Assembly (NCBI GenBank): GCA_046482435.1
Contig: JAWOEZ010000023.1
Location: forward strand, 1 to 63,291
DNA length: 63,291 nucleotides
Reading direction: 5' to 3'
From: Halanaerobiales bacterium
GTDB lineage: Bacteria; Bacillota; Halanaerobiia; Halanaerobiales; M55B127
Shown: positions 24,121-52,178 of the stretch, in pieces
Layout: every line of letters starts with the position of its first letter
Numbering within the stretch: position 1 is the stretch's first letter
Made by a program: the position numbers and the translations under genes
Notes under the pieces: generated by a model
What the model was told of the DNA's origin: nothing
Database searches by the model: none
What the model saw: only the letters and a program-made list of their open reading frames with translations

Positions 24121-25705
24121 AATATTATATATTACTTTAGTCTTAGTGTTATCTTTTTCTCTTTTAGCTGGTGCCCAAAAATCGGTCAAGACCGTACAAC
24201 CTAGTAGGGGAGATATAACAATTACTGAACTTCTTTCAGGAAAGGTTATTCCGGAGAAGACAGTAAATTTACCTGCAGAAATTAACGGTGTTGTTGAAAA
24301 GTTACATGTTTCTGTTGGTGATCAGGTTAAGAAGGGTGATAAAATATTAGAATTTGATAAGAGCCAACTATTAATTCAAAAGAAACAGTCTGAAGCCGGT
24401 TTAGAAGCAGCTCAGGCTAATTTAGATCAACTTCTAAAAGGTGCTTCTGAAGAAGATATAAAGAGTGCAGAAGCCAATCAAGAACAGGCTCAAATTTCTC
24501 TAGAAAGTGCGAAAGAAAGTCTAGAGTTAATTGAAGAGATCTATCAAGATAAGACAAGCCTTAGACAGCAGCTAGTAAACGCTGAATCACAGTTTAAAAA
24601 TGCTGAGAAACAATTAGAATCAGCAGAAGAAAGAGTCAATCAGGCCCAAAAATCATTAGAACAGGCCGAGGTAGGAGTTAAACAGTCTGAAAACAACTTA
24701 AAGCAGGCTAAAAATGATTATGAAAGAATGCAAAAACTATATGATGATAATGTAATCAGTGAAAAAGAGCTAGAAGGAGCCCAGCTGCAGTTGGAAAATG
24801 CACGTTCTTCTTATCAAAATTCTCAACTACAGGTCGAGAATGCCCTGGTTTCAATTGAAAGTGCTCGAATAGCAAAAGAACAAGCTGAGTTATCATTAAA
24901 TACCTCTGAAAAATTATATGAAATTGCAAAAGAAAACTATGACAATCCTACTCAATTAAAACAGCAACTGCAGTCAGCAAAGAATCAGGTTAATGTTTCC
25001 ACTGTTAATAAAAAAATTGCAAAGATAAATGTTGATAAGGTTAAAAAAGGTGTAGATGAAGATCAAATAAAAGCCAGTAAAGCTAATGTAAAACAGGCGG
25101 AAGCCGGCTTAGACCAGATTAATTATCAACTTTCCAAAGCCACTCTTACCGCTCCTATCAGTTCTCAGATTGCTTCTGTAGATACAGAGGAAAATGAAAT
25201 GATTAGTCAGGGGACCCCGGTGGTAAGACTGGTTGTAACAGACACCTTAAATATAAATACTACGGTTACTTCCGAGCTAAGGCCATATATTGATAAAGGA
25301 GATAAAGTGGATGTTTTAGTTAAAAACGGACAGACCAGAGTACTAGAAGGAAAAATTAAGACAATTTCACCAATAATTGACCCTCAAAATGAGGCCTATC
25401 CTGTTGTTGTTGAATTGACGGGAGATCCCAAGAATGTATATCCGGGAATGTTTGTAGATGTTAGGATTAGTAAAGATAGTGCTCGGGGAGCAGTAACATT
25501 ACCAATAGATGCAGTAGTTGATTTAGATAGTTTCCCGCATGTCTATGTTGTAAAGAACGGCGAAGCAGTTAAAATCAATGTAAGTGTCGGAATTATTTAT
25601 GATGATAAAGTGGAAATTACAGACGGACTCCAAGAAGATGATCAGGTAATTATAAAGGGGCAGCAGGATCTTACAGAAGGTCAGTCCGTTGAGGTGATTG
25701 AGTAA
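24107..25705 (+). CDS. efflux RND periplasmic adaptor (MFP/HlyD family) with an unusually long coiled-coil hairpin
   Basis: Signal/anchor, lipoyl-like GDQVKKGDKILEF, about 250 aa of Q/E/K/A-rich coiled coil, then a beta-barrel C-terminus. 532 aa. Confidence 0.88.
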   Translation: MKLNKILYITLVLVLSFSLLAGAQKSVKTVQPSRGDITITELLSGKVIPEKTVNLPAEINGVVEKLHVSVGDQVKKGDKILEFDKSQLLIQKKQSEAGLEAAQANLDQLLKGASEEDIKSAEANQEQAQISLESAKESLELIEEIYQDKTSLRQQLVNAESQFKNAEKQLESAEERVNQAQKSLEQAEVGVKQSENNLKQAKNDYERMQKLYDDNVISEKELEGAQLQLENARSSYQNSQLQVENALVSIESARIAKEQAELSLNTSEKLYEIAKENYDNPTQLKQQLQSAKNQVNVSTVNKKIAKINVDKVKKGVDEDQIKASKANVKQAEAGLDQINYQLSKATLTAPISSQIASVDTEENEMISQGTPVVRLVVTDTLNINTTVTSELRPYIDKGDKVDVLVKNGQTRVLEGKIKTISPIIDPQNEAYPVVVELTGDPKNVYPGMFVDVRISKDSARGAVTLPIDAVVDLDSFPHVYVVKNGEAVKINVSVGIIYDDKVEITDGLQEDDQVIIKGQQDLTEGQSVEVIE

Positions 25706-28700
25706 TGAAGTTATCAGATTTTTCGATAAAGCGGCCTGTAACCACTGTAATGCTGATTCTTTTGATAGTTATTTTAGGTTTTATCTCACTTGATAGACTT
25801 AATATAGACCTATTACCTGAAATTAACTTTCCGGGGGCAGCAGTTATTACATCTTATGGAGAAGCGGGTCCCGAAGAAATAGAGTCTTTAGTAACAAAAC
25901 CGTTAGAAAATTCGTTGGCTACAGTAACGAATGTTAAATCGATAAACTCGACCTCTGATGCCGGCCAATCGACAATTGTTATGGAATTCAATTATGGGAC
26001 TGACATGGACTTTGCTGCTCTGGATATGAGGGAGCAAACGGATATGGTTTCAGAGGTCTTACCGGATGATGCCCAGGATCCTTTGATCGTACAGTTCGAT
26101 CCATCCATGATCCCAGTTTTACAGCTTGGGGTCTCCAGTGGCCAGAACTTAGCCGATCTTAAAACTCAGGTAGAAGATAATGTTATTCCTAGAATAGAAA
26201 GACTTCAGGGAGTAGCCTCTGTAGACTTAACGGGAGGCTTAGACCGGGAAATTTTAATTGAATTGGATAGAAATAAGATGGAAAACTATGGGGTTGAATT
26301 TAATTCGGTTACCCAGAACTTATTATTGGAGAACTTTAATTTATCGGGTGGTAAAATTAACCGGGGTAATGTAGAATATATAGTTAGAGTAACCGGTAAA
26401 TTTGAAAATATTGACGAAATCAGAGAAGTATTAATACCGACCGGTTCTGGTAGGGGCTTTGTTAAACTAAGTGAGATCGGAACTGTAAAAGATACCTTTA
26501 AAGAAGTAAATAGTGTTGCACGAGTAAATGGTGAAGACAGTATCGGTTTAACAATTCAGAAACAGACCGATGCTAATACAGTGACAGTAGCAAATAGAGT
26601 TCGGGATGAAGTTGAGGAATTAAAAAATGATTACCCGAACCTAAGCATGGTGCCCATTGCGGACCAGGCAGAATATATCGAGCAGTCGATTAGTAGTGTT
26701 TACCGGAATGCAATAATCGGTGGTTTACTTGCAATTTTAGTATTATTTCTCTTCTTAAGAAATATTAGGAGTACTATTATAATCGGTCTTACAATACCGA
26801 TCTCTATTGTGGCCACTTTCCTTTTGATTTACTTCGGTGGATTAACAATTAATATAGTATCATTAGGTGGACTTGCCCTCGGGATTGGGATGCTGGTCGA
26901 TAACTCGATCGTGGTTCTTGAAAACATTTTCCGATATAAACAGTACGGTTTAGACCGGCTAGAGGCGGCCAGCCGTGGTAGTGAAGAAGTCGGGATGGCG
27001 ATTGCAGCTTCTACTTTTACAACAATAGTTGTGTTTTTACCTGTAATTTTTGTACAGGGTTTAACAGCTCAAATATTTAGAGAGTTAGCTTTAACGGTTA
27101 GTTTCTCATTGTTTGCTTCTTTAATTGTTGCGCTTACTTTAATACCAATGCTTTCTTCAAAAATATTAAAGTTAAGTAAAAAACAGATGAACTTTGATAC
27201 AGAAACGAACCTGGGCATTATTAAATCCAATTACCAGAATTCACTATCCTGGTTTTTAAATCACCGCTGGGTTATAGGTATATTAATTGTCGTATTAATA
27301 GCTGCCGGTGGATTTGTGGGAACCAAACTTGGTACAGAGTTCTTACCCGAGTTTGACCAGGGGCAGTTAACAGTGGATTATAGTTTACCTGTTGGGACAG
27401 TATTAGATGAAACTCAGCAGGTTGCTGAAGATATAGAGGATGAGATAGGTGAAATACCAGAAGTTGAAACAATATTTACGAATATCGGTGTTGGGGATAT
27501 AATGAGTGGATCGTCAGCTACTGAAGCAGGTTCTTTTACCGTAATTTTAAAGGATCTGGCAGAAAGAGATCGTTCCACCAGTCAGGTAATGGAAGAATTA
27601 AGGAACAAGATTAAAATTCCGGGTGCAGATATAAATATAGAGTCACAGAGTGGATTTTTTGGACCAGGTGGTGGCCAGCCGATTAATATCAAAGTAGTTG
27701 GTGATGACCTGGAAGAATTAGAAAGGCTATCAGCCCTAGTAATGGAAGAAATGAATCAGGTAGAAGGAGTCAGAGAAGTTGAAGACTCCTTTGAAGAGGG
27801 TAGGCCTGAATATTCAATAAGTATTGATAGGTCATTAGCGGCTCGCTTAGGTTTAAGGGTCAGAAGTGTAGCAAATACAGTTAAAACAGTTATCTCCGGT
27901 GATGTGGCTACTAGATATGAAGTAGCCGGAGCTGAATATGATGTTAGAGTTACTTTAGATGAAAGTGACAAACAGAACATCGAACAGCTCAAAAATATCA
28001 TGTTGCCTTCTCCAACCGGAGCGAAGGTACCTTTAGCACGGGTAGCTAATATTGAGTTAACTGAAGGGCCTAAACAGATTTTGAGATTAAATCAGGAACG
28101 ATACTCAGAAATTACAGCTTCCCTTTACCAGACTGATTTGGGAACAGCTGTTAATCAAATTCAAGAGAGGGTTGACGAAAACGTAGAACTAACTGAAGGG
28201 TACGATATTGTATATGGTGGGCAGTTTGAAGATTTACAGCAGTCATTTTCAGATCTATTTTTTGCATTCTTATTAGCGATAGTGCTAGTATATATGGTAA
28301 TGGCTTCACAATTTGAATCATTAGTCCATCCCCTAGTAATAATGTTTACAGTACCACTAGCACTTGTTGGAGTTGTATTTGGACTATATATTACTGATTC
28401 AACGATTTCTGTGCCTGCTTTAATTGGTATAATAACCCTGGCAGGTATTGTGGTTAATAATGCTATCGTTCTTGTAGACTATATTAATAGAATGAGAGAT
28501 GAAGGCCGTACTAAACGAGATGCTATCTTAGAAGCCGGTCCAATTAGGTTAAGGCCGATCATGATGACTGCCTTGACAACAATCCTGGCCTTGATCCCAC
28601 TATCATTAGGTATAGGAGAAGGTTCTGAACTGGAACAACCATTAGCAATTGTTGTGATTAGTGGATTACTATTTTCTACCTTCTTAACACTGTATGTAAT

Positions 28701-28770
28701 ACCAGTACTTTATTCTTCATTTACAGATCTAAGTGACAAATTGAAGAGGATCTTAAGAAAAGTTGTGTAG
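25705..28770 (+). CDS. efflux RND transporter permease (AcrB/HAE1 family)
   Basis: 1021 aa, 12-TM architecture with two large periplasmic loops. The start ATG shares one base with the upstream TAA stop (TAATG). Confidence 0.95.
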   Translation: MKLSDFSIKRPVTTVMLILLIVILGFISLDRLNIDLLPEINFPGAAVITSYGEAGPEEIESLVTKPLENSLATVTNVKSINSTSDAGQSTIVMEFNYGTDMDFAALDMREQTDMVSEVLPDDAQDPLIVQFDPSMIPVLQLGVSSGQNLADLKTQVEDNVIPRIERLQGVASVDLTGGLDREILIELDRNKMENYGVEFNSVTQNLLLENFNLSGGKINRGNVEYIVRVTGKFENIDEIREVLIPTGSGRGFVKLSEIGTVKDTFKEVNSVARVNGEDSIGLTIQKQTDANTVTVANRVRDEVEELKNDYPNLSMVPIADQAEYIEQSISSVYRNAIIGGLLAILVLFLFLRNIRSTIIIGLTIPISIVATFLLIYFGGLTINIVSLGGLALGIGMLVDNSIVVLENIFRYKQYGLDRLEAASRGSEEVGMAIAASTFTTIVVFLPVIFVQGLTAQIFRELALTVSFSLFASLIVALTLIPMLSSKILKLSKKQMNFDTETNLGIIKSNYQNSLSWFLNHRWVIGILIVVLIAAGGFVGTKLGTEFLPEFDQGQLTVDYSLPVGTVLDETQQVAEDIEDEIGEIPEVETIFTNIGVGDIMSGSSATEAGSFTVILKDLAERDRSTSQVMEELRNKIKIPGADINIESQSGFFGPGGGQPINIKVVGDDLEELERLSALVMEEMNQVEGVREVEDSFEEGRPEYSISIDRSLAARLGLRVRSVANTVKTVISGDVATRYEVAGAEYDVRVTLDESDKQNIEQLKNIMLPSPTGAKVPLARVANIELTEGPKQILRLNQERYSEITASLYQTDLGTAVNQIQERVDENVELTEGYDIVYGGQFEDLQQSFSDLFFAFLLAIVLVYMVMASQFESLVHPLVIMFTVPLALVGVVFGLYITDSTISVPALIGIITLAGIVVNNAIVLVDYINRMRDEGRTKRDAILEAGPIRLRPIMMTALTTILALIPLSLGIGEGSELEQPLAIVVISGLLFSTFLTLYVIPVLYSSFTDLSDKLKRILRKVV

Positions 28771-29029
28771 TAAATAATAGAAATATTTATTAAATTATAA
28801 CAAATGAGGAATTGATGGTTTACTCAACCATTCCTGTTCTAATTTAAGATTTTGCAAGCTGATCCCTCCTAAAATGTTATATTATTTTCTGGAAAGGTAT
28901 TATAATATAGTTAGACAAATTTGTAAATATAGTTAAAAAATTATCAAAACCGATCAATTCTTATTGGAATAGATCATCATTATTGGATGCAAAAAATTCT
29001 ATTAAACTGGCGTCTGTGATATAATCAGA

Positions 29030-29503
29030 ATGAACTTTGCTTGTAAAGAAGCTGAGTTTCATTCCAGATATTTCAATGAAAATTCAATTTATCAGCCTCA
29101 GGCCTCAGTCGGAATCAGCAGAAGACGCTTTAGAGAAATAGAATCAGACGATCGTTTTCATCTCTACTACCGTTTAGATAAAGAATTAGCAGAATATTAT
29201 GGAGAAAAAAATGTAATTCAAACTCAAGCAGCAGTTTTAAAAGTTCAACTTGAACTGGCATCATTACATTGAAACTGAAGAATTATAGACGATTATAAGT
29301 CAAATAAGCCAACTCTTCTAGCAGGTGAAGGAACAGTTCCACCTTAAGATGTAGGAGGACCTGATGGTTTCAATGAATTTATACACATTATTTCCAATCC
29401 GAAAAATGAAGATTATGAAATGATGACTGAATGGGCAAAAGGCCAGGGCTTTAAAGAGTATGATCCGGAAAAGATAAAATCTGAGCTAAAATCATACTTT
29501 TAG
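29030..29503 (+). pseudogene. decayed pRiA4b ORF-3-like gene (internal deletion, frameshift, premature stop)
   Basis: Aligns to residues about 128-200 of the 31870-33024 product, then jumps to ...IETEE.IDDYKSNKP...PP*DVGG...KEYDPEKIK. TAA replaces the Glu of PPEDVGG and there is a 1-nt deletion in gaagaaatt. Confidence 0.8.
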
Positions 29504-29529
29504 TTGAAAAAATAATCTGCTATAAATAT

Positions 29530-29560
29530 ATTAGATAAAACAATGACATCTGTTAAATAT
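29530..29560 (+). repeat. copy 1 of 31-nt motif ATTAGATAA..GAC.TCTG.TAAATAT
   Basis: attagataaaacaatgacatctgttaaatat, followed by a second CCGACAT box at 29572-29578. Lies upstream of the 5' gene stub. Confidence 0.7.
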
Positions 29561-29601
29561 CAGGTTAAATTCCGACATATAAAGTGTTTGTCTTAAAAAC
29601 C

Positions 29602-29681
29602 ATGAAGAAAGGATTGATAAGTATGCTGATTAAGGCAACAACTAAACTAAGAAAAGGATTGAATTTGGAAGAATTATTATA
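29602..29681 (+). pseudogene. 5' stub (26 codons) of a pRiA4b ORF-3-like paralogue
   Basis: 29591-29673 versus 31838-31920: 71 of 83 positions identical by hand count. Homology then stops and a TAA follows. Confidence 0.75.
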
Positions 29682-29697
29682 AATCTGTTATAATATT

Positions 29698-29728
29698 ATT
29701 AGATAATAAACCGACTTCTGATAAATAT
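29698..29728 (+). repeat. copy 2 of 31-nt motif
   Basis: attagataataaaccgacttctgataaatat is 25/31 identical to copy 1 (hand count). Second box CCGACAG at 29740-29746. Lies directly upstream of the DUF3307 gene. Confidence 0.7.
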
Positions 29729-29758
29729 TACAAAAAATACCGACAGAGGAGACTGCTT

Positions 29759-30523
29759 ATGCTTTATTCTTTATTAATTCTGGCACATATTCTTTCAGAT
29801 TTTACTTTTCAAAGTAAAAATACAAGTGAAAATAAAAGAAAGTCTAATTTTTCTTTATTGAAACATGGAATAATAGTATTTGTTATCTCCTATATTTTAA
29901 CAATTTATTATTTTAGTTTATCTCATTTTTTTATGATATTTTTATTATCTCTGCTGCATGTAGCTGTTGATTATATTAAGATCAGGCTAACTGATAAATT
30001 TAGCACTTATAATTTGGAATTGTTTATTTTTGATCAGCTGCTTCATTTTTTAGTTATTTTTATGATAATTCCACTTTTTAATCCTGCTCCCACCCAGGAA
30101 CTGTTCTCATTTTTAAAAGAACTAACTGATATTTATCAACCATTAAAATTTTTAACAGAAGCAAAAATTAGTTTTTTATTGATTACTTTATCTGTTATTA
30201 TTTTTAATTTTAAAGCTGCCACTATCCTGGTCAGAAAAACACTGAGCAAATATAAAAGCAATATAAGCCGGGAGGGAGACAAAGGGGAGGCAATTGGGAA
30301 TTTAGAAAGATTACTAATTATTATCTTTATAGTTTTTGAATATTATTCACTAATTGGTTTAATGTTTACGGCTAAATCACTGATCAGGTTTAAAGAAATA
30401 GAGGTTAAAGCTGAAAAAAATTCTTCTTTTGTAGAATACTATTTAATAGGATCCTTTACCAGTATTTTGATTGCAATTTCTACCGGTAGTTTAATTAATA
30501 TATTTTCATATTTATGGAATTAG
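29759..30523 (+). CDS. DUF3307 (SatE-like) integral membrane protein
   Basis: 254 aa, about 7 TM spans, N-terminal LLILAHILSDFTFQS pattern. Paired with a SatD-family gene, as in the S. mutans sat locus. Confidence 0.7.
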   Translation: MLYSLLILAHILSDFTFQSKNTSENKRKSNFSLLKHGIIVFVISYILTIYYFSLSHFFMIFLLSLLHVAVDYIKIRLTDKFSTYNLELFIFDQLLHFLVIFMIIPLFNPAPTQELFSFLKELTDIYQPLKFLTEAKISFLLITLSVIIFNFKAATILVRKTLSKYKSNISREGDKGEAIGNLERLLIIIFIVFEYYSLIGLMFTAKSLIRFKEIEVKAEKNSSFVEYYLIGSFTSILIAISTGSLINIFSYLWN

Positions 30524-30535
30524 GAGGTGACTCTG

Positions 30536-31810
30536 ATGAGTAATAATTCAATTGTTGTAATTGGAGATATCATTGAGTCTAAAAAGATAAATAACCGAAA
30601 AAATGTGCAAAATAAACTGGCTGAATTATTGGATAATATAAACCAGGACTATCAGAAATATATAGAGTCACCTTTTAAAATTACTCTGGGAGATGAATTT
30701 TATGGTGTACTCAATAACTTTTATCCAGTAATTGATATTCTTCAGATATTAGAAGTTGAATTTAAGGAAATTGATTTTAGATTTGGGATTGGTCAGGGGA
30801 AATTTAATGATAATAATCAGGGGATTGCCTATGAAAAGGCTCTTAAAGCAGTAAAAATTGTTAAAAATAAAAAATTTAATATCCACTTAATTAGTACTAA
30901 TAACAATAATTATTTTCAAATAATAAGTTTAATTTTACATTTATATTTTAGTATTTTTAATAAATTTACCTTCAATCAGAAATATATAATTCACAGTTTG
31001 AACAGAGGTAAAAAACAGCAAGAAATTGCAGCTGATTTAGGCAGCTCTCAGTCAAGTGTTAGTCAATCACTATCCAATATCAACTGGAAGCTTTTAGTTA
31101 AAACTGCAGATTTTTTTAAAGAATTTAACAGCCAGTATTCTAAAATAGAAATTAATTTAAGAGGGAATCATTTAGCTTTAATAGGAGCTTATTCTCGCAG
31201 ATTAAATGAGAAAAATGATATCAGAAATACATTGATAAAAATTAATGATGATTATAAAAATCTAATTAGATCTAAATTTGTTTTAGCTACCCTGTCTGAT
31301 GAAGCTGAAGATTATTTTGAGTTTCAGGCATTATTTAAAAAAGAAATTGAGGATTATCAAAAATTATTATATTTACTGGTAGACATTTATTATGAAATTG
31401 ATGAATTATATGTGGGGCTTGGTTCAGGCAAAATATCGACAGAGATTAAAGAGCAGGCCTTAGGGATGGATGGACCAGCTTTTTATAATGCAAGAGAGGC
31501 ACTAAATAAATCTTTTGCAGATGGAATATCATTAAATTTAATTTCAGGAAAGAAAATAGCAGATACCAGTTTGTCAATAATTTTTTCACTGCTTATTGAA
31601 TTCATAAAAAAATGGACAGCTCAGCAGAAAAAAGCTGTAGATTATAGAGCAGCAGGATTAAGTCAAAATAAAATCAAGGTAAAAATGGGCTTGTCAGCCC
31701 GCTCAACATTAGTAGAACATTTACAGAGAGCTGGCTGGAAGGAATATGATTATATCATAAAGAATCTTGCTGAATTATTAGCTAAAAACCCGACATTATT
31801 AAAATATTAG
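30536..31810 (+). CDS. SatD-family protein, tandemly duplicated (two SatD+HTH modules)
   Basis: Module 1: VVIGDIIESKK...ITLGDEFYGV...FRFGIGQG...HTH QQEIAADLGSSQSSVSQSL. Module 2 (from about 31145): LALIGAYSRR...LYVGLGSGKI...DGPAFYNAREAL...HTH LSQNKIKVKMGLSARSTLVEHL. AGGAGG lies 8 nt before ATG 30536. Confidence 0.7.
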   Translation: MSNNSIVVIGDIIESKKINNRKNVQNKLAELLDNINQDYQKYIESPFKITLGDEFYGVLNNFYPVIDILQILEVEFKEIDFRFGIGQGKFNDNNQGIAYEKALKAVKIVKNKKFNIHLISTNNNNYFQIISLILHLYFSIFNKFTFNQKYIIHSLNRGKKQQEIAADLGSSQSSVSQSLSNINWKLLVKTADFFKEFNSQYSKIEINLRGNHLALIGAYSRRLNEKNDIRNTLIKINDDYKNLIRSKFVLATLSDEAEDYFEFQALFKKEIEDYQKLLYLLVDIYYEIDELYVGLGSGKISTEIKEQALGMDGPAFYNAREALNKSFADGISLNLISGKKIADTSLSIIFSLLIEFIKKWTAQQKKAVDYRAAGLSQNKIKVKMGLSARSTLVEHLQRAGWKEYDYIIKNLAELLAKNPTLLKY

Positions 31811-31829
31811 ATAAATAACCGACAAATAT
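31806..31829 (+). repeat. copy 3 (shortened) of the ATTAGATAA...CCGAC motif
   Basis: attagataaataaccgacaaatat equals copy 1 with the segment between its two CCGAC boxes missing. Lies upstream of the intact pRiA4b-like gene. Confidence 0.65.
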
Positions 31830-31869
31830 AGTGATTATCTTAAAAATCATGACGAAAGGATTGATTAGT

Positions 31870-33024
31870 ATGCTAATCCAGGCAACAACTAAGTTAAGAA
31901 ATGAATTAAATCTGGAAGAACTAGATCAAAAAGAAAGAGCTGCTTTATTTTCCTGGCACGCCAATTTCAAAAGGATTAATCGACGTAAAACAGTTATCTT
32001 AGTTAATGATGCTTGTGCTTATACTGTAGTCTTATATGGTCTGAAAAAAGATGATTTTCTAAATTTTCCGGAGCGGATCAAAGAGGGGATTAGACAAGCA
32101 TTTGAAATGGAAGGAATTAAAGATAGTTTAATTGAAAAATATTTGAGTGAATTTGAAGATTTTACTTTTCAAAAAACAAAAAACAGAAAATATGTTGGTA
32201 GATTAACTCAGGCCTGCAAAGATATAGAGTTTTATGCAGATGAATTCAATGAAAATGAAATTTATCAGGCTGAAAGCTCAAAAAATATCAGTCATATGCT
32301 TTTTAAAGAAATAGATAGTGATAATTATTTCACTGCTAATGAACGTTTAAGAGAAAAATTAACCGAATATTATGAGGAAAAAGATATAATCCAGACTAAA
32401 GCAGCAGTTTTAAAAGTTGAGCTTGAGCTAGGTGAATATGAAGCCTGGCGGAAAGTTATTGTACCTTTAAATTATAATTTTAGGGAGCTGCACAGGATTA
32501 TTCAGGAACTTTATAACTGGCAGCATTATCACCTGCATGAATTCTTTGTTTACAGTGAGGACAAAGATGATACAAAAAATTGGAACCATGGTGAATATCA
32601 CCGAGATGGATACAGGGCAATTTTAAATCTGGTTGTGGATCAGGAAAATCTTGAATATAATAAATATGAACTAAACTATGAAACTGAAGATTTTAAGCTG
32701 GCAGTGGAAAATGAAGTTAAACTGAAGGAAATTCTGCCGGCCAGAATAAAATATATTTATGATTATGGTGATAACTGGCAGCATTACATTGAAACTGAAG
32801 AAATTATAGATGATTATAAGTCAAATAAGCCTACTTTTCTAGAAAGTGAAGGAACAGCTCCCCCGGAAGATGTAGGTGGAATAGGCGGTTTTAGTGAATT
32901 TATGCGAATTATCTCCAATCCAGATGATGAAGAATATGAGTCTATGCTTGAATGGGCTGAAAGTCAGAGATTTAAAGAGTATGATCCGGAAGAGATTAAA
33001 ACTAGGCTTGAGCGTTATTTTTAA
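31870..33024 (+). CDS. plasmid pRiA4b ORF-3-like (MM3350-like) family protein with N-terminal extension
   Basis: LHRIIQELYNWQHYHLHEF, YIYDYGDNWQHYIE and APPEDVGGIGGF signatures. Alternative in-frame starts at 31831 (GTG) and 31849 (ATG). 31870 has AAAGGA 9 nt upstream. Confidence 0.8.
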   Translation: MLIQATTKLRNELNLEELDQKERAALFSWHANFKRINRRKTVILVNDACAYTVVLYGLKKDDFLNFPERIKEGIRQAFEMEGIKDSLIEKYLSEFEDFTFQKTKNRKYVGRLTQACKDIEFYADEFNENEIYQAESSKNISHMLFKEIDSDNYFTANERLREKLTEYYEEKDIIQTKAAVLKVELELGEYEAWRKVIVPLNYNFRELHRIIQELYNWQHYHLHEFFVYSEDKDDTKNWNHGEYHRDGYRAILNLVVDQENLEYNKYELNYETEDFKLAVENEVKLKEILPARIKYIYDYGDNWQHYIETEEIIDDYKSNKPTFLESEGTAPPEDVGGIGGFSEFMRIISNPDDEEYESMLEWAESQRFKEYDPEEIKTRLERYF

Positions 33025-33094
33025 TAGTAACTTTAAAAATAATTTGGAGTTTGTGCTTATTCTGGCAGTTAATAAAAAAGAAGGATACTAAAAT

Positions 33095-33590
33095 ATGGAT
33101 AACTTAAAGAAAATTTTAGATGATTTCTTATCAGATCAGGATGAAAGGTTAAGTAAGAGAACATATAATGAAGTACAGTAATGTGATAGAGCTTTTTGAA
33201 GATTGTTTAAATAGTTATGCTTACATGTTTTTGCCTGAGGAAGAGCAGCAAAATTTTGAAGAAAAAGATATTTTCGGAGAAGATAGTTACTGTGAGATCT
33301 ATTCTATTGATAAGCTTAGCAGTATGCAGATAGATGACTTTATGATTAGGAAATTAATGGCTGAGAAACACCTAATGAAAAAGACAGTTACAGTTATGCG
33401 CCGCTTCAGTAAATGGCTGAAAAATAATGAATATATTACTAAGGAAAAGTTTGATATCATTTATTCTACAATCAATGAAAAAAAAGATGTTTTGCCTAAA
33501 GCAGCTGAATTATCTGATTTAATTTATCTGAAACAGCCAAAAAAACTCCATCCAAGCTATGCATTGGGGGGAGATGAATTGGTTATTTAA
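33095..33590 (+). pseudogene. frameshifted, C-terminally truncated paralogue of the 51489-52178 gene
   Basis: MDNLKKILDDFLSDQDERLSKRTYN (frame a) continues as KYSNVIELFEDCLNSY... (frame b, track ORF 33168). This matches MENLKQTLEKFLKEQKERLAKSTYNKYDDVITLFEHYLNGY. A single extra nt lies in acatataatGaagtac. Confidence 0.8.
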
Positions 33591-33609
33591 AATTTAATTA
33601 AATGTTAAA

Positions 33610-33678
33610 TTAATCTTTAACTTGATTTTCAATATACTTTTTAATTGTCTCAATAGTAGCGCTACCAATAGATACCAT
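33610..33678 (-). pseudogene. remnant of IS200/IS605-type TnpA C-terminus
   Basis: The minus strand reads MVSIGSATIETIKKYIENQVKD*. The I-K-K-Y-I-E-N-Q ending is typical of Y1 (IS200-like) transposases. No upstream ORF remains. Confidence 0.4.
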
Positions 33679-33697
33679 ACAGTAACTTCTAGATTAA

Positions 33698-33721
33698 AAA
33701 CCGTGCATTAAACCGTGCAAT
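33698..33721. repeat. tandem 12-nt repeat aaaccgtgcaNt x2
   Basis: aaaccgtgcatt followed by aaaccgtgcaat, next to the IS200-like remnant. Confidence 0.6.
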
Positions 33722-33844
33722 CTAAACTCTTACAAAAAAGCTATTAAATCTACTTAATATATTGTATTTCTATCATGATTATGTTAAAATATAAAAGTGT
33801 TGAGGAATGAATAGCGAAACAATAATAGGTGGGGGTGACCGCTA

Positions 33845-51488: not shown

Positions 51489-52178
51489 TTGGAAAACTTA
51501 AAACAAACTTTAGAAAAGTTTTTAAAAGAACAAAAAGAAAGATTAGCAAAAAGTACTTATAATAAATATGATGATGTAATCACTTTATTTGAACATTATT
51601 TGAATGGATATGGTTATCAATATTTAGATGAAGAAAATCATGAAACATATGAAAAAATGATGTATAGCAAAAATAAGCAATATTGTGAAGTGTTTACTAT
51701 TGAACAAATAGGTCCGGGTGAGCTAGATGAATTCATGACTTATTTTATGATTAGAAAAGTAATGAGCAGTAAAGAATTATTGAAAAACACTGGTACTGTC
51801 CTGAGGAAATTTATAAAGTGGTTAAAAGAAAATTCATATATAGATGATAAAAAATTTGATATATTATATAGTGAGGTAAATGAAAATAAAGATGACTTAC
51901 CTAAAGTGGAAGAACTAGCTGATCTGTTCTTTGAGAATGGTAGAAGAAACAGTTTTTATGAATATGAGGAATATGAAGAAGATAATTTTCAAATTTCTAA
52001 AATTGGAAAAGGAAAACTTTGGTTGGAGTCATTTATGGAGGAAAATAAAAATGTTGGGCCTGTAAAAGTAACTGAAGAAATAAGTTCCTTAGCCCAGGAA
52101 GGTTGGTTAGTTTATCTTGTATTAGGTAAGTCAGGGAAGAACTGGTATATTATTGAAAGTGGCAATGTATATCCTTAG
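51489..52178 (+). CDS. hypothetical protein; N-terminal half reminiscent of the SAM-like core-binding domain of tyrosine recombinases, no catalytic domain
   Basis: 229 aa, TTG start after GAGGGGG. FLKEQKERLAKSTYNKY...EFMTYFMIRKV...VLRKFIKWLKENSYI pattern. A decayed paralogue lies at 33095-33590. Confidence 0.6.
   Translation: MENLKQTLEKFLKEQKERLAKSTYNKYDDVITLFEHYLNGYGYQYLDEENHETYEKMMYSKNKQYCEVFTIEQIGPGELDEFMTYFMIRKVMSSKELLKNTGTVLRKFIKWLKENSYIDDKKFDILYSEVNENKDDLPKVEELADLFFENGRRNSFYEYEEYEEDNFQISKIGKGKLWLESFMEENKNVGPVKVTEEISSLAQEGWLVYLVLGKSGKNWYIIESGNVYP

What the first reader, a model, noticed from the sequence alone, without database searches (positions are those of the whole stretch)
29030..33024. 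DUF3307-SatD pair bracketed by intact and decayed pRiA4b-ORF3-like genes and a thrice-repeated 31-nt motif
There is one intact pRiA4b ORF-3-like gene (31870-33024) and two wrecks of a paralogue. The first is a 3' portion with an internal deletion, a frameshift and a premature stop (29030-29503). The second is a promoter-proximal 26-codon stub (29602-29681); 71/83 nt are identical to the intact copy over 29591-29673 versus 31838-31920. The DUF3307 and SatD genes sit exactly between the stub and the intact copy.
The motif ATTAGATAA..(C)CGAC.TCTG.TAAATAT occurs at 29530-29560 and 29698-29728 (25/31 identical). A shortened form lies at 31806-31829. Each copy sits just upstream of a start codon. 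The first two are followed by a second CCGACA box, and copy 3 looks like copy 1 with the inter-box segment deleted.
This pattern fits either recombination between repeated sites that inserted or duplicated the cassette, or a shared operator. The HTH-bearing SatD protein is an obvious candidate binder.
Basis: seen in the sequence. Interest (0 to 1): 0.65.

Follow-up and report, generated by a model that had tools for sequence, protein, structure and literature searches.

The report
SatD regulator cassette with phased operators
The repeated motif is most likely the private DNA-binding site of an unusual doubled SatD regulator. It sits in front of each gene unit of a 4.9-kb imported, partly decayed gene cassette, so this uncharacterised regulator family can now be tested directly.

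Summary
All three motif copies are full length (29530, 29698, 31777). Each is half of an array of two 18-nt boxes (TTAGATAA-N5-CGACA) exactly 29 nt apart.

The region is a 4.9-kb insertion (~28858-33722) between acrB and secG. Nine genomes of the same genus have these genes ~200 nt apart.

The SatD gene is a rare tandem fusion of two palm+HTH modules. All 12 relatives examined end in the same box pair, whatever gene follows. In 74 ordinary SatD loci from many phyla, a palindromic box forms arrays with the same 28-29-bp phasing.

The boxes are therefore most likely SatD operators: symmetric for homodimers and asymmetric for the fused protein. They sit on or beside the promoters of DUF3307-SatD and the pRiA4b-like gene.

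The wrecks are a decayed upstream paralogue (A) and a chimeric array plus stub, best explained by recombination between arrays. SatD-less tandem A-B loci exist in relatives.

The parts
28858..33722 (+). 4.9-kb inserted accessory cassette between the acrB-type RND pump gene and secG (boundaries within about 15 nt)
   Evidence: Nine same-genus genomes have the acrB 3' end and secG about 200 nt apart. No terminal inverted repeats and no recombinase gene were found.
29017..29025 (+). Outer promoter Pout, an extended -10 (TGATATAAT). In relatives it drives the upstream pRiA4b-like paralogue A.
   Evidence: TCTGTGATATAAT is conserved in G036, L022, L023, L116 and L119 directly upstream of A-type genes or their remnants.
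29026..29503 (+). Decayed pRiA4b-like paralogue A. It has lost its 5' ~110 codons and has an internal ~343-nt deletion, one frameshift and one premature stop.
   Evidence: It is 86.7% identical to the intact A-type gene of L116 (2310-2542) but only 71-73% to B-type genes.
29531..29577 (+). Array 1 (boxes 29531-29548 and 29560-29577). It is chimeric: the left flank is TGcTATAAA (-10 type, 29518-29526) and the right flank is TATAAA plus a B-type leader.
29623..29681 (+). Dead 5' stub of a B-type pRiA4b-like gene: 19 codons from the conserved ATG, or 26 from ATG 29602
   Evidence: The stub-to-promoter junction TTGGMAGAATTA is also present in L023 and G036.
29665..29694 (+). Promoter P_in of the DUF3307-SatD operon: TTGGAA, 18 nt, TG-n-TATAAT
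   Evidence: 10 of 12 positions, with TG. TGTTATAAT is conserved 4 nt before box 1 in G036, L022 and L023.
29699..29745 (+). Array 2 (boxes 29699-29716 and 29728-29745). It lies between P_in and the Shine-Dalgarno sequence GAGGAG (29746-29751).
29759..30523 (+). DUF3307 membrane protein gene
   Evidence: Pfam 1.1e-17. It is 85-87% identical in Halanaerobium cassettes and 50-53% in Iocasia and L026.
30536..31810 (+). Doubled SatD gene (SatD2, 424 aa from ATG 30536; GTG 30527 is possible). It encodes two palm-like plus HTH modules in one chain.
   Evidence: Two SatD matches. The halves are 27% identical, E 5e-8. The N-terminal half of the model matches GGDEF, class III cyclase and mCpol palm domains. 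There are GerE and sigma-70 region 4-like HTH hits.
31778..31824 (+). Array 3 (boxes 31778-31795 and 31807-31824). Box 1 encodes the SatD2 C-terminus and box 2 overlaps the stop codon.
   Evidence: The same arrangement ends every doubled SatD gene examined.
31825..31869 (+). Leader of the intact pRiA4b-like gene. It has a -10-like element directly after box 2 (TATAAA in most relatives, AATATA here) and the SD GAAAGGA at 31854-31860.
   Evidence: RNAalifold found no conserved RNA structure.
31870..33024 (+). Intact DUF6933 + PRiA4_ORF3 gene (paralogue B)
   Evidence: Pfam. PDB 2I1S by sequence and by fold, TM 0.81. ATG 31870 is the conserved start; ATG 31849 is not conserved.
33095..33590 (+). 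Frameshifted, truncated copy of a 230-aa accessory gene that follows the pRiA4b-like gene in relatives
   Evidence: 33044-33527 is 82.5% identical to L116 5128-5622, which holds an intact 230-aa ORF. A paralogue lies at window 51489-52178.

Best explanation
**What it is.** The locus is a horizontally acquired 4.9-kb accessory cassette. Its core is a DUF3307-SatD2 operon. SatD2 is a single-chain fusion of two diverged SatD modules, each a cyclase/GGDEF-like palm domain plus an HTH. Only the first module keeps the GD and GDEF-like acidic motifs.

**The motif.** The 'thrice-repeated 31-nt motif' is half of a larger unit: an array of two asymmetric 18-21-bp boxes, (ATA)TTAGATAA-N5-CGACA, phased exactly 29 bp apart.

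**Inferred mechanism.** I infer that SatD2 binds these boxes. One HTH would read TTAGATAA and the other CGACA, about one helical turn away.
- Array 2 lies between the operon's extended -10 promoter and its ribosome-binding site. Binding there would shut off DUF3307-SatD2 (autorepression).
- Array 3 overlaps the SatD2 stop codon. It lies directly upstream of a -10-like element and the leader of the intact DUF6933/pRiA4b-like gene. The downstream 'cargo' gene would therefore be under the same control, either by promoter occlusion or activation, or by blocking read-through.
- The signal sensed by the palm domains is unknown. It is presumably a nucleotide, possibly relayed by the DUF3307 membrane partner.

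**The wrecks are history, not function.**
- The ancestral island had two tandem pRiA4b-like paralogues (A behind Pout, then B), with the SatD2 module between them.
- A has decayed here.
- Array 1 plus the stub is a chimera left by recombination between an upstream-type and a downstream-type array, followed by deletion.

**Shown:** the anatomy, the insertion, the conservation and phasing of the boxes, and their association with SatD genes.

**Inferred:** binding by SatD2, the direction of regulation, the ligand, and the order of rearrangements.
For: 1. **Specific to this locus.** Three arrays lie here and there is essentially nothing elsewhere in the genome.
2. **Travels with SatD2.** All 12 doubled-SatD loci examined end in a box pair or triplet with 28-29-nt phasing. 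This holds whatever follows: pRiA4b-like gene, DUF6155+UPF0158, nitroreductase, SIS, MoaE or a contig end.
   - In the distant relatives (L026, Iocasia L107, L114), which are 45-47% identical in protein where full length and about 64% in DNA for L026, the first eight boxes match 96 of 104 specified positions. Their flanks cannot be aligned.
   - L026 has three perfect 29-nt repeats upstream of DUF3307.
3. **Family-wide signature.** In 74 single-domain SatD loci from many phyla:
   - The palindromic box AACC-N5-GGTT occurs 154 times in the 330 nt before satD, against 6.6 in shuffles and 4 in control windows.
   - There are 80 neighbour spacings of 28-29 nt, against 0.01 in shuffles.
   - 47 of 74 loci have a phased pair.
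   - Symmetric boxes go with presumed homodimers. The asymmetric box goes with the fused protein, whose two HTHs are both conserved but differ from each other.
4. **Fixed geometry.** TGtTATAAT ends 4 nt before box 1, and box 2 abuts the SD in five relatives. In downstream arrays, TATAAA follows box 2.
5. **Not tied to the pRiA4b-like gene.** L115, L117 and L118 have such genes without boxes.
6. **No RNA explanation.** There was no Rfam match and no conserved fold.
7. **Insertion and horizontal transfer.** The site is empty in 9 congeners. The cassette is 85% identical to H. saccharolyticum DNA, while the conserved hppA gene is only 75%.
8. **History.** An intact A-type orthologue and SatD-less A-B loci exist. 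Array 1 has chimeric flanks.
Against: - There is no binding, footprint or expression evidence.
- The AlphaFold model of SatD2 is poor: mean pLDDT 56, and the second module is below 50. The two-HTH geometry is therefore untested.
- The Iocasia-type loci (G028, L107) have the terminal array but no array upstream of DUF3307. This is odd for simple autorepression.
- Two Halanaerobium contigs carry boxes with no SatD2 in view: one box before gene B in L116, and a pair before a small membrane ORF in L119. These could be scars or trans-regulated sites. They could also mean the boxes work as promoter elements independent of SatD2.
- Promoter-like hexamers are not enriched over shuffles in this AT-rich region.
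- Box 1 of array 3 is also under coding constraint.
Confidence: 0.68

Rival explanations
1. The boxes are recombination sites. A dedicated recombinase or simple homologous exchange uses them to insert, excise and swap gene modules (DUF3307-SatD2, pRiA4b-like genes, small ORFs) within Halanaerobium accessory islands. This is comparable to attC sites of integrons.
For: - Arrays bracket the DUF3307-SatD2 pair.
- The gene behind the terminal array varies between relatives.
- L023 has an extra array-plus-leader unit and an inserted 80-aa ORF.
- L116 has a single box exactly where the SatD2 module sits elsewhere.
- Array 1 is chimeric.
- The DUF6933 domain model has a weak fold resemblance to integrase catalytic cores.
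Against: - The boxes are direct repeats without dyad symmetry and have no attC-like structure.
- There is no recombinase gene in the insert.
- Most deletion junctions in relatives lie away from the boxes: the G036, G034 and L024 deletions.
- The tight geometry with -10 and SD elements, and the family-wide 28-29-bp phasing upstream of ordinary satD genes, are unexplained by this model.
- The integrase-like fold match is weak (TM 0.3-0.5) and no DDE triad is conserved.
Confidence: 0.1
2. The arrays are themselves the promoters of the island genes. The -35-like CCGACA of box 1 and the -10-like TAAAAT inside box 2 lie 16 nt apart. Host RNA polymerase reads them with no role for SatD2, and their repetition simply reflects promoter duplication.
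For: - The 29-nt period equals the span of a -35/-10 pair.
- Arrays precede several different genes, including two in contigs where no SatD2 is visible.
- Each copy lies just upstream of a start codon.
Against: - The -10 candidate inside box 2 is poor in the window's own arrays (TAAATA, AAAAAA).
- Separate, better -10 elements flank the arrays.
- The terminal array persists in Iocasia and L026 with no cargo gene behind it.
- This model does not explain the palindromic 28-29-bp arrays of ordinary SatD loci.
Confidence: 0.1
3. The repeats have no present function. They are copies by descent, left by duplication of a pRiA4b-gene leader during assembly and decay of the cassette.
For: - The locus is visibly decaying, with pseudogenes, a stub and a frameshifted ORF.
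- Array 1 precedes a dead stub.
- Close relatives are 77-86% identical in DNA, so conservation among them says little.
Against: - Boxes are about 92% conserved in relatives whose coding DNA is about 64% identical and whose flanks cannot be aligned.
- The phasing is exact in every locus.
- Both HTHs of SatD2 are under clear purifying selection.
Confidence: 0.07
4. The boxes act in RNA, as a 5'-UTR element bound by a protein or forming a structure, rather than in DNA.
For: If transcription starts after the TGtTATAAT element, array 2 would make up nearly the whole 5' UTR of DUF3307.
Against: - There is no Rfam family.
- RNAalifold predicts no pairs in the leader alignment.
- In the palindromic relatives, C-A mismatches (AGTTGAA variants) are as common as G-U-compatible ones.
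- The asymmetric box cannot form a hairpin.
Confidence: 0.05

Closest known systems
satD-satE type gene pair (Pfam SatD PF16264 + DUF3307 PF11750), named after the Streptococcus mutans sat locus
   Same: Both Pfam families match above their cut-offs. The genes are adjacent. The palm-like domain is fused to an HTH. Phased 28-29-bp box arrays lie next to the regulator gene.
   Different: - Here two SatD modules are fused in one 424-aa chain. Only 11 such protein clusters exist among 5.8 billion proteins, all in Halanaerobiales.
- The gene order is reversed: DUF3307 comes first.
- The box is asymmetric rather than palindromic.
- A second array sits at the 3' end of the regulator gene and faces a cargo gene.
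MarA/Rob/SoxS-type monomeric regulators with two HTH motifs reading an asymmetric ~20-bp box (established knowledge)
   Same: One polypeptide with two different HTHs would read a two-part, non-palindromic site whose halves lie about one helical turn apart.
   Different: The fold and origin are unrelated (AraC family versus duplicated palm+HTH modules). There is no phased array in the mar system. Binding by SatD2 is inferred, not shown.
Phage lambda CI with operator sets OL and OR bracketing cI-rexA-rexB
   Same: Multiple phased operators lie on both sides of the regulator's own operon. This gives autoregulation plus control of an outward-facing neighbour.
   Different: There are two boxes per array with 29-bp phasing. 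There is no evidence for looping or cooperativity. The regulator carries a nucleotide-cyclase-like domain, and the cassette is not a prophage.
pRiA4b ORF-3 / IS1096 'TnpR' / MM3350 family (PF07929; PDB 2I1S)
   Same: The C-terminal half of the intact gene matches by sequence (4.6e-19) and by fold (TM 0.81). The same genome also has the classical IS-passenger form on contig C56.
   Different: Here it is fused to DUF6933, occurs as tandem paralogues in accessory islands, and sits behind a SatD-type array. Its function is unknown in all cases.

Membership tests
SatD family (PF16264) | Match to the family HMM above the gathering score | tested here: met
   115.3 bits against a cut-off of 29. Two separate domain matches of 77.5 and 46.6 bits.
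SatD family (PF16264) | Palm (cyclase/GGDEF-like) N-terminal domain followed by an HTH | tested here: met
   For module 1 the Foldseek top hits are GGDEF, class III cyclase and mCpol domains (E ~1e-3, TM 0.4-0.58 to target). HTH hits are GerE, sigma-70 r4 and ComA. Module 2 is modelled too poorly to judge.
SatD family (PF16264) | Adjacent DUF3307 membrane protein gene | tested here: met
   DUF3307 lies immediately upstream. 53 of 80 related loci have the pair by tblastn, though in the opposite order.
SatD phased operator arrays (a regularity seen in this scan, not a published family) | Two or more boxes phased 28-29 bp apart next to the satD gene | tested here: met
   Exactly 29 nt in all three arrays. 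80 of 91 spacings in ordinary SatD loci are 28-29 nt.
SatD phased operator arrays (a regularity seen in this scan, not a published family) | Palindromic box (TTCAACC-N5-GGTTGAA type) | tested here: not met
   The box here is TTAGATAA-N5-CGACA, with no dyad symmetry.
SatD phased operator arrays (a regularity seen in this scan, not a published family) | Bound by the SatD protein | not testable with these tools
   Needs EMSA or footprinting. The structure model is too poor for docking.
DUF3307 (PF11750) | HMM match above the gathering score | tested here: met
   64.7 bits against a cut-off of 23.
PRiA4_ORF3 / MM3350-like (PF07929) with DUF6933 (PF22016) | HMM matches above the gathering scores and the MM3350 fold | tested here: met
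   167.7 and 159.1 bits. 2I1S at 4.6e-19. Model pLDDT 93 with TM 0.81 to 2I1S.
Integron gene cassette / attC site | Imperfect inverted-repeat recombination site at the cassette 3' end, with an integrase nearby | tested here: not met
   The boxes are direct repeats. No inverted repeat or fold was found. There is no integrase in the insert.
Insertion sequence / transposon | Terminal inverted repeats, target-site duplication and a transposase gene | tested here: not met
   No terminal inverted repeats. There is only an imperfect ~15-nt similarity at the two junctions. There is no transposase gene.
PADLOC defence candidate PDC-S63 | Match to the PDC-S63 models | tested here: inconclusive
   The N-terminal DUF6933 domain matches PDLC05054 at 4.8e-18. 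Only that domain matches, and the defence function is itself only a candidate.

The most novel reading that the evidence does not exclude
SatD2 may be a natural single-chain version of a SatD dimer whose operator became asymmetric along with the protein. That would be direct comparative proof that SatD proteins read the 28-29-bp phased boxes.

In Halanaerobium islands the SatD2 module with its two arrays would then act as a ligand-gated switch. Different accessory or defence-like cargo genes have been slotted behind it and placed under one nucleotide-sensing regulator: DUF6933-pRiA4b-like, DUF6155-UPF0158, and a small membrane ORF.
Probability: 0.25. Interest if true: 0.7.

Novelty: new variant of a known kind. 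Interest (0 to 1): 0.55.

Why it matters
SatD and DUF3307 are widespread Pfam families. The full-text search returned two papers that only mention them in passing, and neither was opened.

This locus contributes three things.
- **A natural experiment.** Symmetric protein goes with a palindromic box, and the fused asymmetric protein goes with an asymmetric box, at the same 29-bp phasing. This ties the boxes to the protein and predicts which HTH reads which half-site.
- **A defined regulon.** It consists of the regulator's own operon plus one cargo gene, which makes the family's signal and output testable with simple reporters.
- **A worked example of dual roles.** Repeated operators also serve as recombination substrates that reshuffle and erode an accessory cassette.

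It is not a new kind of system, and the decayed genes themselves are ordinary.

Tried and rejected
- **Known RNA families:** none in the region or in 14 related loci.
- **Conserved RNA structure in the leader:** none.
- **SatD2 structure for HTH spacing:** the model is too poor (pLDDT 56). Only the palm fold of module 1 could be read.
- **Literature:**
  - The first search was swamped by 'satDNA'.
  - The pRiA4b search returned mainly Agrobacterium plasmid, hairy-root and genome-announcement papers.
  - 'SatD'/'SatE'/S. mutans returned nothing.
  - The SatD family/DUF3307/DUF6933/PDC-S63 search returned two incidental mentions.
- **pRiA4b-like gene as a general SatD partner:** rejected. Of the 80 related loci fetched, only the three Halanaerobium-type ones (L022-L024) have it by tblastn, though a single-sequence tblastn is not sensitive.
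- **Mobile-element signatures at the insert ends:** none convincing. The tandem AAACCGTGCA at the right end is unique and unexplained.
- **Second array downstream of ordinary satD-DUF3307 operons:** not a general feature in this sample.
- **Near-match to the motif on contig C79:** a single box with no partner, judged to be chance.
- **DUF6933 as an integrase-like catalytic core:** only weak fold matches and no conserved DDE triad. Kept as a lead only.

Full report
**1. Checking the observation**

- 29759-30523 is DUF3307.
- The next ORF is SatD.
- 31870-33024 is DUF6933 plus PRiA4_ORF3.

The decayed copy is real:
- 29054-29256 aligns with intact 32227-32429 (73%).
- 29253-29482 aligns with 32773-33003 (81%).
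- About 343 nt are missing between the two blocks.
- There is a 1-nt deletion near 29283 and a GAA>TAA stop at 29346.

One correction is needed. A pattern search finds three full-length 31-mers, at 29530, 29698 and 31777, where none is expected by chance. The third lies inside the last codons of SatD.

Each motif region is a pair of 18-nt boxes, TTAGATAA-N5-CGACA, exactly 29 nt apart. In the whole 1.96-Mb assembly, such phased pairs occur only here, apart from one weak chance pair.

**2. The region is an insertion**

The 3' end of the RND pump gene and the start of secG flank the locus. In nine genomes of the same genus these lie about 200 nt apart. Here they are 5.1 kb apart.

Aligning the empty sites places the insert at about 28858-33722. 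It has no terminal inverted repeats, no clear target duplication and no recombinase gene.

The cassette is 85% identical in DNA to one in Halanaerobium saccharolyticum, which belongs to another family of the order. The conserved hppA gene next door is only 75% identical to that genome. A same-genus genome carries only a SatD pseudogene, at an unrelated site. The cassette therefore moves horizontally among Halanaerobiales and decays after arrival.

**3. The SatD gene is unusual**

It contains two SatD modules in one chain. The halves are 27% identical.
- The first half keeps the IGD and LGDEF-like acidic motifs. The second has lost them.
- Each half ends in a different, well-conserved HTH.
- A search of 5.8 billion proteins found only 11 clusters of this doubled form. 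All named ones are from Halanaerobiales.
- The AlphaFold model is poor overall (pLDDT 56). Its N-terminal half matches GGDEF, class III cyclase and mCpol palm domains.
- The gene order (DUF3307 first) is the reverse of the usual satD-then-DUF3307 order.

**4. The boxes travel with the doubled SatD gene**

I examined every doubled-SatD locus I could fetch: four Halanaerobium-type cassettes, three metagenome contigs, Iocasia, two distant Halanaerobiales MAGs, and the two pseudogene remnants.

In all of them the gene ends in a box pair (once a triplet) with 28-29-nt phasing. The first box lies in the last codons and the second lies after the stop.

This holds whatever lies downstream:
- the pRiA4b-like gene
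- a DUF6155-UPF0158 pair
- a nitroreductase with its own promoter
- SIS or MoaE genes
- a contig end

In three of the most distant relatives (L026, L107, L114), which are 45-47% identical in protein where full length, the first eight boxes match 96 of 104 specified positions, while flanking non-coding DNA cannot be aligned.

L026 also has three perfect 29-nt repeats upstream of DUF3307.

In the Halanaerobium-type cassettes the upstream array has a fixed geometry. TGtTATAAT ends 4 nt before box 1, and box 2 abuts the Shine-Dalgarno sequence. In downstream arrays, box 2 is followed at once by TATAAA and a conserved leader.

**5. The same phasing marks the whole SatD family**

I looked for direct repeats upstream of 74 ordinary, single-domain SatD genes. 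These come from Gammaproteobacteria, Bacteroidota/Ignavibacteria, Calditrichia, Spirochaetes, Chloroflexi and others. A palindromic box, TTCAACC-N5-GGTTGAA, recurs at 28-29-nt intervals.

The counts are as follows:

| Measure | Observed | Shuffles | Control windows |
|---|---|---|---|
| Core matches in the 330 nt before satD | 154 | 6.6 | 4 |
| Neighbour spacings of 28-29 nt | 80 of 91 | 0.01 | 0 |
| Loci with at least one phased pair | 47 of 74 | 0.01 | 0 |

So phased arrays are a signature of SatD loci.
- The ordinary proteins, presumably homodimers as palm-domain cyclases are, go with symmetric boxes.
- The fused protein, with two different HTHs, goes with an asymmetric two-part box of the same length and phasing.
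- This correspondence is the strongest argument that SatD proteins read the boxes as DNA.
- No Rfam family covers the arrays.
- The leader has no conserved RNA fold.

Earlier AI notes in this scan report the same 29-bp arrays in other genomes. I treated them as leads and derived the pattern independently here.

**6. The pRiA4b-like genes and the wrecks**

The intact protein models with high confidence (pLDDT 93). Its C-terminal half is the MM3350 fold (TM 0.81 to 2I1S). The DUF6933 half has only weak resemblance to integrase-type cores, with no conserved DDE triad. DUF6933 matches the PADLOC defence candidate PDC-S63.

The family is large (512 hits) and common in Halanaerobium.

Four findings bear on the history:
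- Such genes without boxes are seen in H. praevalens and two other loci (L115, L117, L118), which also lack SatD2. The boxes therefore belong to SatD2 and not to the pRiA4b-like gene.
- Tandem A-B pairs without SatD2 exist (L116, L119).
  - L116's first gene is the intact orthologue of the window's decayed copy (86.7% against 71% for B-type genes).
  - L116 has a single perfect box, flanked by a -10 element on the left and a B-type leader on the right, exactly where the SatD2 module sits elsewhere.
  - L119 has a box pair in front of a small membrane ORF.
- The window's array 1 has the same chimeric flanks.
- The stub-to-promoter junction is shared with L023 and G036, so it is old.

The simplest history has four steps:
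- An island with paralogues A and B carried the SatD2 module between them.
- Exchange between an upstream-type and a downstream-type array produced a chimeric array plus a B 5' end.
- Deletions then removed most of that copy and eroded A.
- Other lineages lost B instead (G036 by a deletion into the next gene, G034 and L024 by internal deletions) or lost SatD2 (G004).

The order of these events is inferred.

**7. Mechanism and caveats**

I conclude that the boxes are SatD2 operators.
- Array 2 sits between promoter and ribosome-binding site, the classic place for a repressor.
- Array 3 couples the cargo gene to the same switch.

Whether SatD2 represses or activates at array 3, and what ligand the palm domains sense, is unknown.

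Points against:
- There are no experimental data.
- Iocasia lacks an upstream array.
- Boxes occur in two contigs where no SatD2 is visible.
- Promoter-like hexamers are not enriched in this AT-rich DNA.

Rivals considered: recombination site, self-contained promoter, functionless duplicate, and RNA element. Each explains some features. None explains the association with SatD2 across distant relatives together with the family-wide phasing.

**8. Verdict**

This is a new variant (fused regulator, asymmetric operator, cargo gene under control) of an uncharacterised but recurrent module. Interest is moderate: it makes a neglected family testable but does not reveal a new kind of system.

Noticed in passing
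window 33095-33590; paralogue at window 51489-52178; L116 5179-5871: The ORF after the pRiA4b-like gene is a frameshifted, truncated copy of a 230-aa protein with no family match. That protein follows pRiA4b-like genes in relatives (intact in L116). A second copy lies 18 kb downstream in the window.
   Followed up: partly
genome contig C56:450-2717: A 540-aa transposase-like ORF is followed at the contig end by a short PRiA4_ORF3-only gene. This is the classical IS-passenger form of the family and is unrelated in sequence to the cassette copies.
   Followed up: partly
window 33698-33719: A tandem AAACCGTGCA-TT-AAACCGTGCA lies directly at the right junction of the 4.9-kb insert. It is unique in the window and its role is unknown.
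   Followed up: partly
window 28893-28958: A possible degenerate fourth promoter-plus-box remnant lies near the left end of the insert. It reads TATTATAAT, then TTAGACAA, and about 30 nt later TTATCAAAACCGATCA. It is too diverged to call.
   Followed up: no
window 25705-28770 versus same-genus genomes: The RND pump gene is adjacent to secG in nine congeners. At least its 3' end is therefore ancestral at this site and not part of the accessory insertion, contrary to an earlier first-reader note of a 12.8-kb accessory block.
   Followed up: partly
L117 and L118 (Halanaerobium contigs): pRiA4b-like genes there sit beside a DUF2357/PDDEXK_7 gene. In L117 they also sit beside a restriction-modification pair and a transposase, which is a defence-island-like setting.
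   Followed up: no
L114: A truncated doubled-SatD gene with three perfect boxes lies next to a large serine recombinase gene and an MNT/HEPN-type toxin-antitoxin pair.
   Followed up: no
L023 3661-3903; L116 3163-3405; L119 6254-6487: A conserved ~80-aa, two-helix membrane ORF moves around within these islands. In L023 and L119 it sits directly behind a box pair.
   Followed up: partly
model of window 31870-33021 (residues 1-170): The confidently modelled DUF6933 domain gives weak Foldseek matches to retroviral integrase catalytic cores (E about 1e-3, TM 0.3-0.5). No conserved DDE triad is visible in a 40-sequence alignment.
   Followed up: partly
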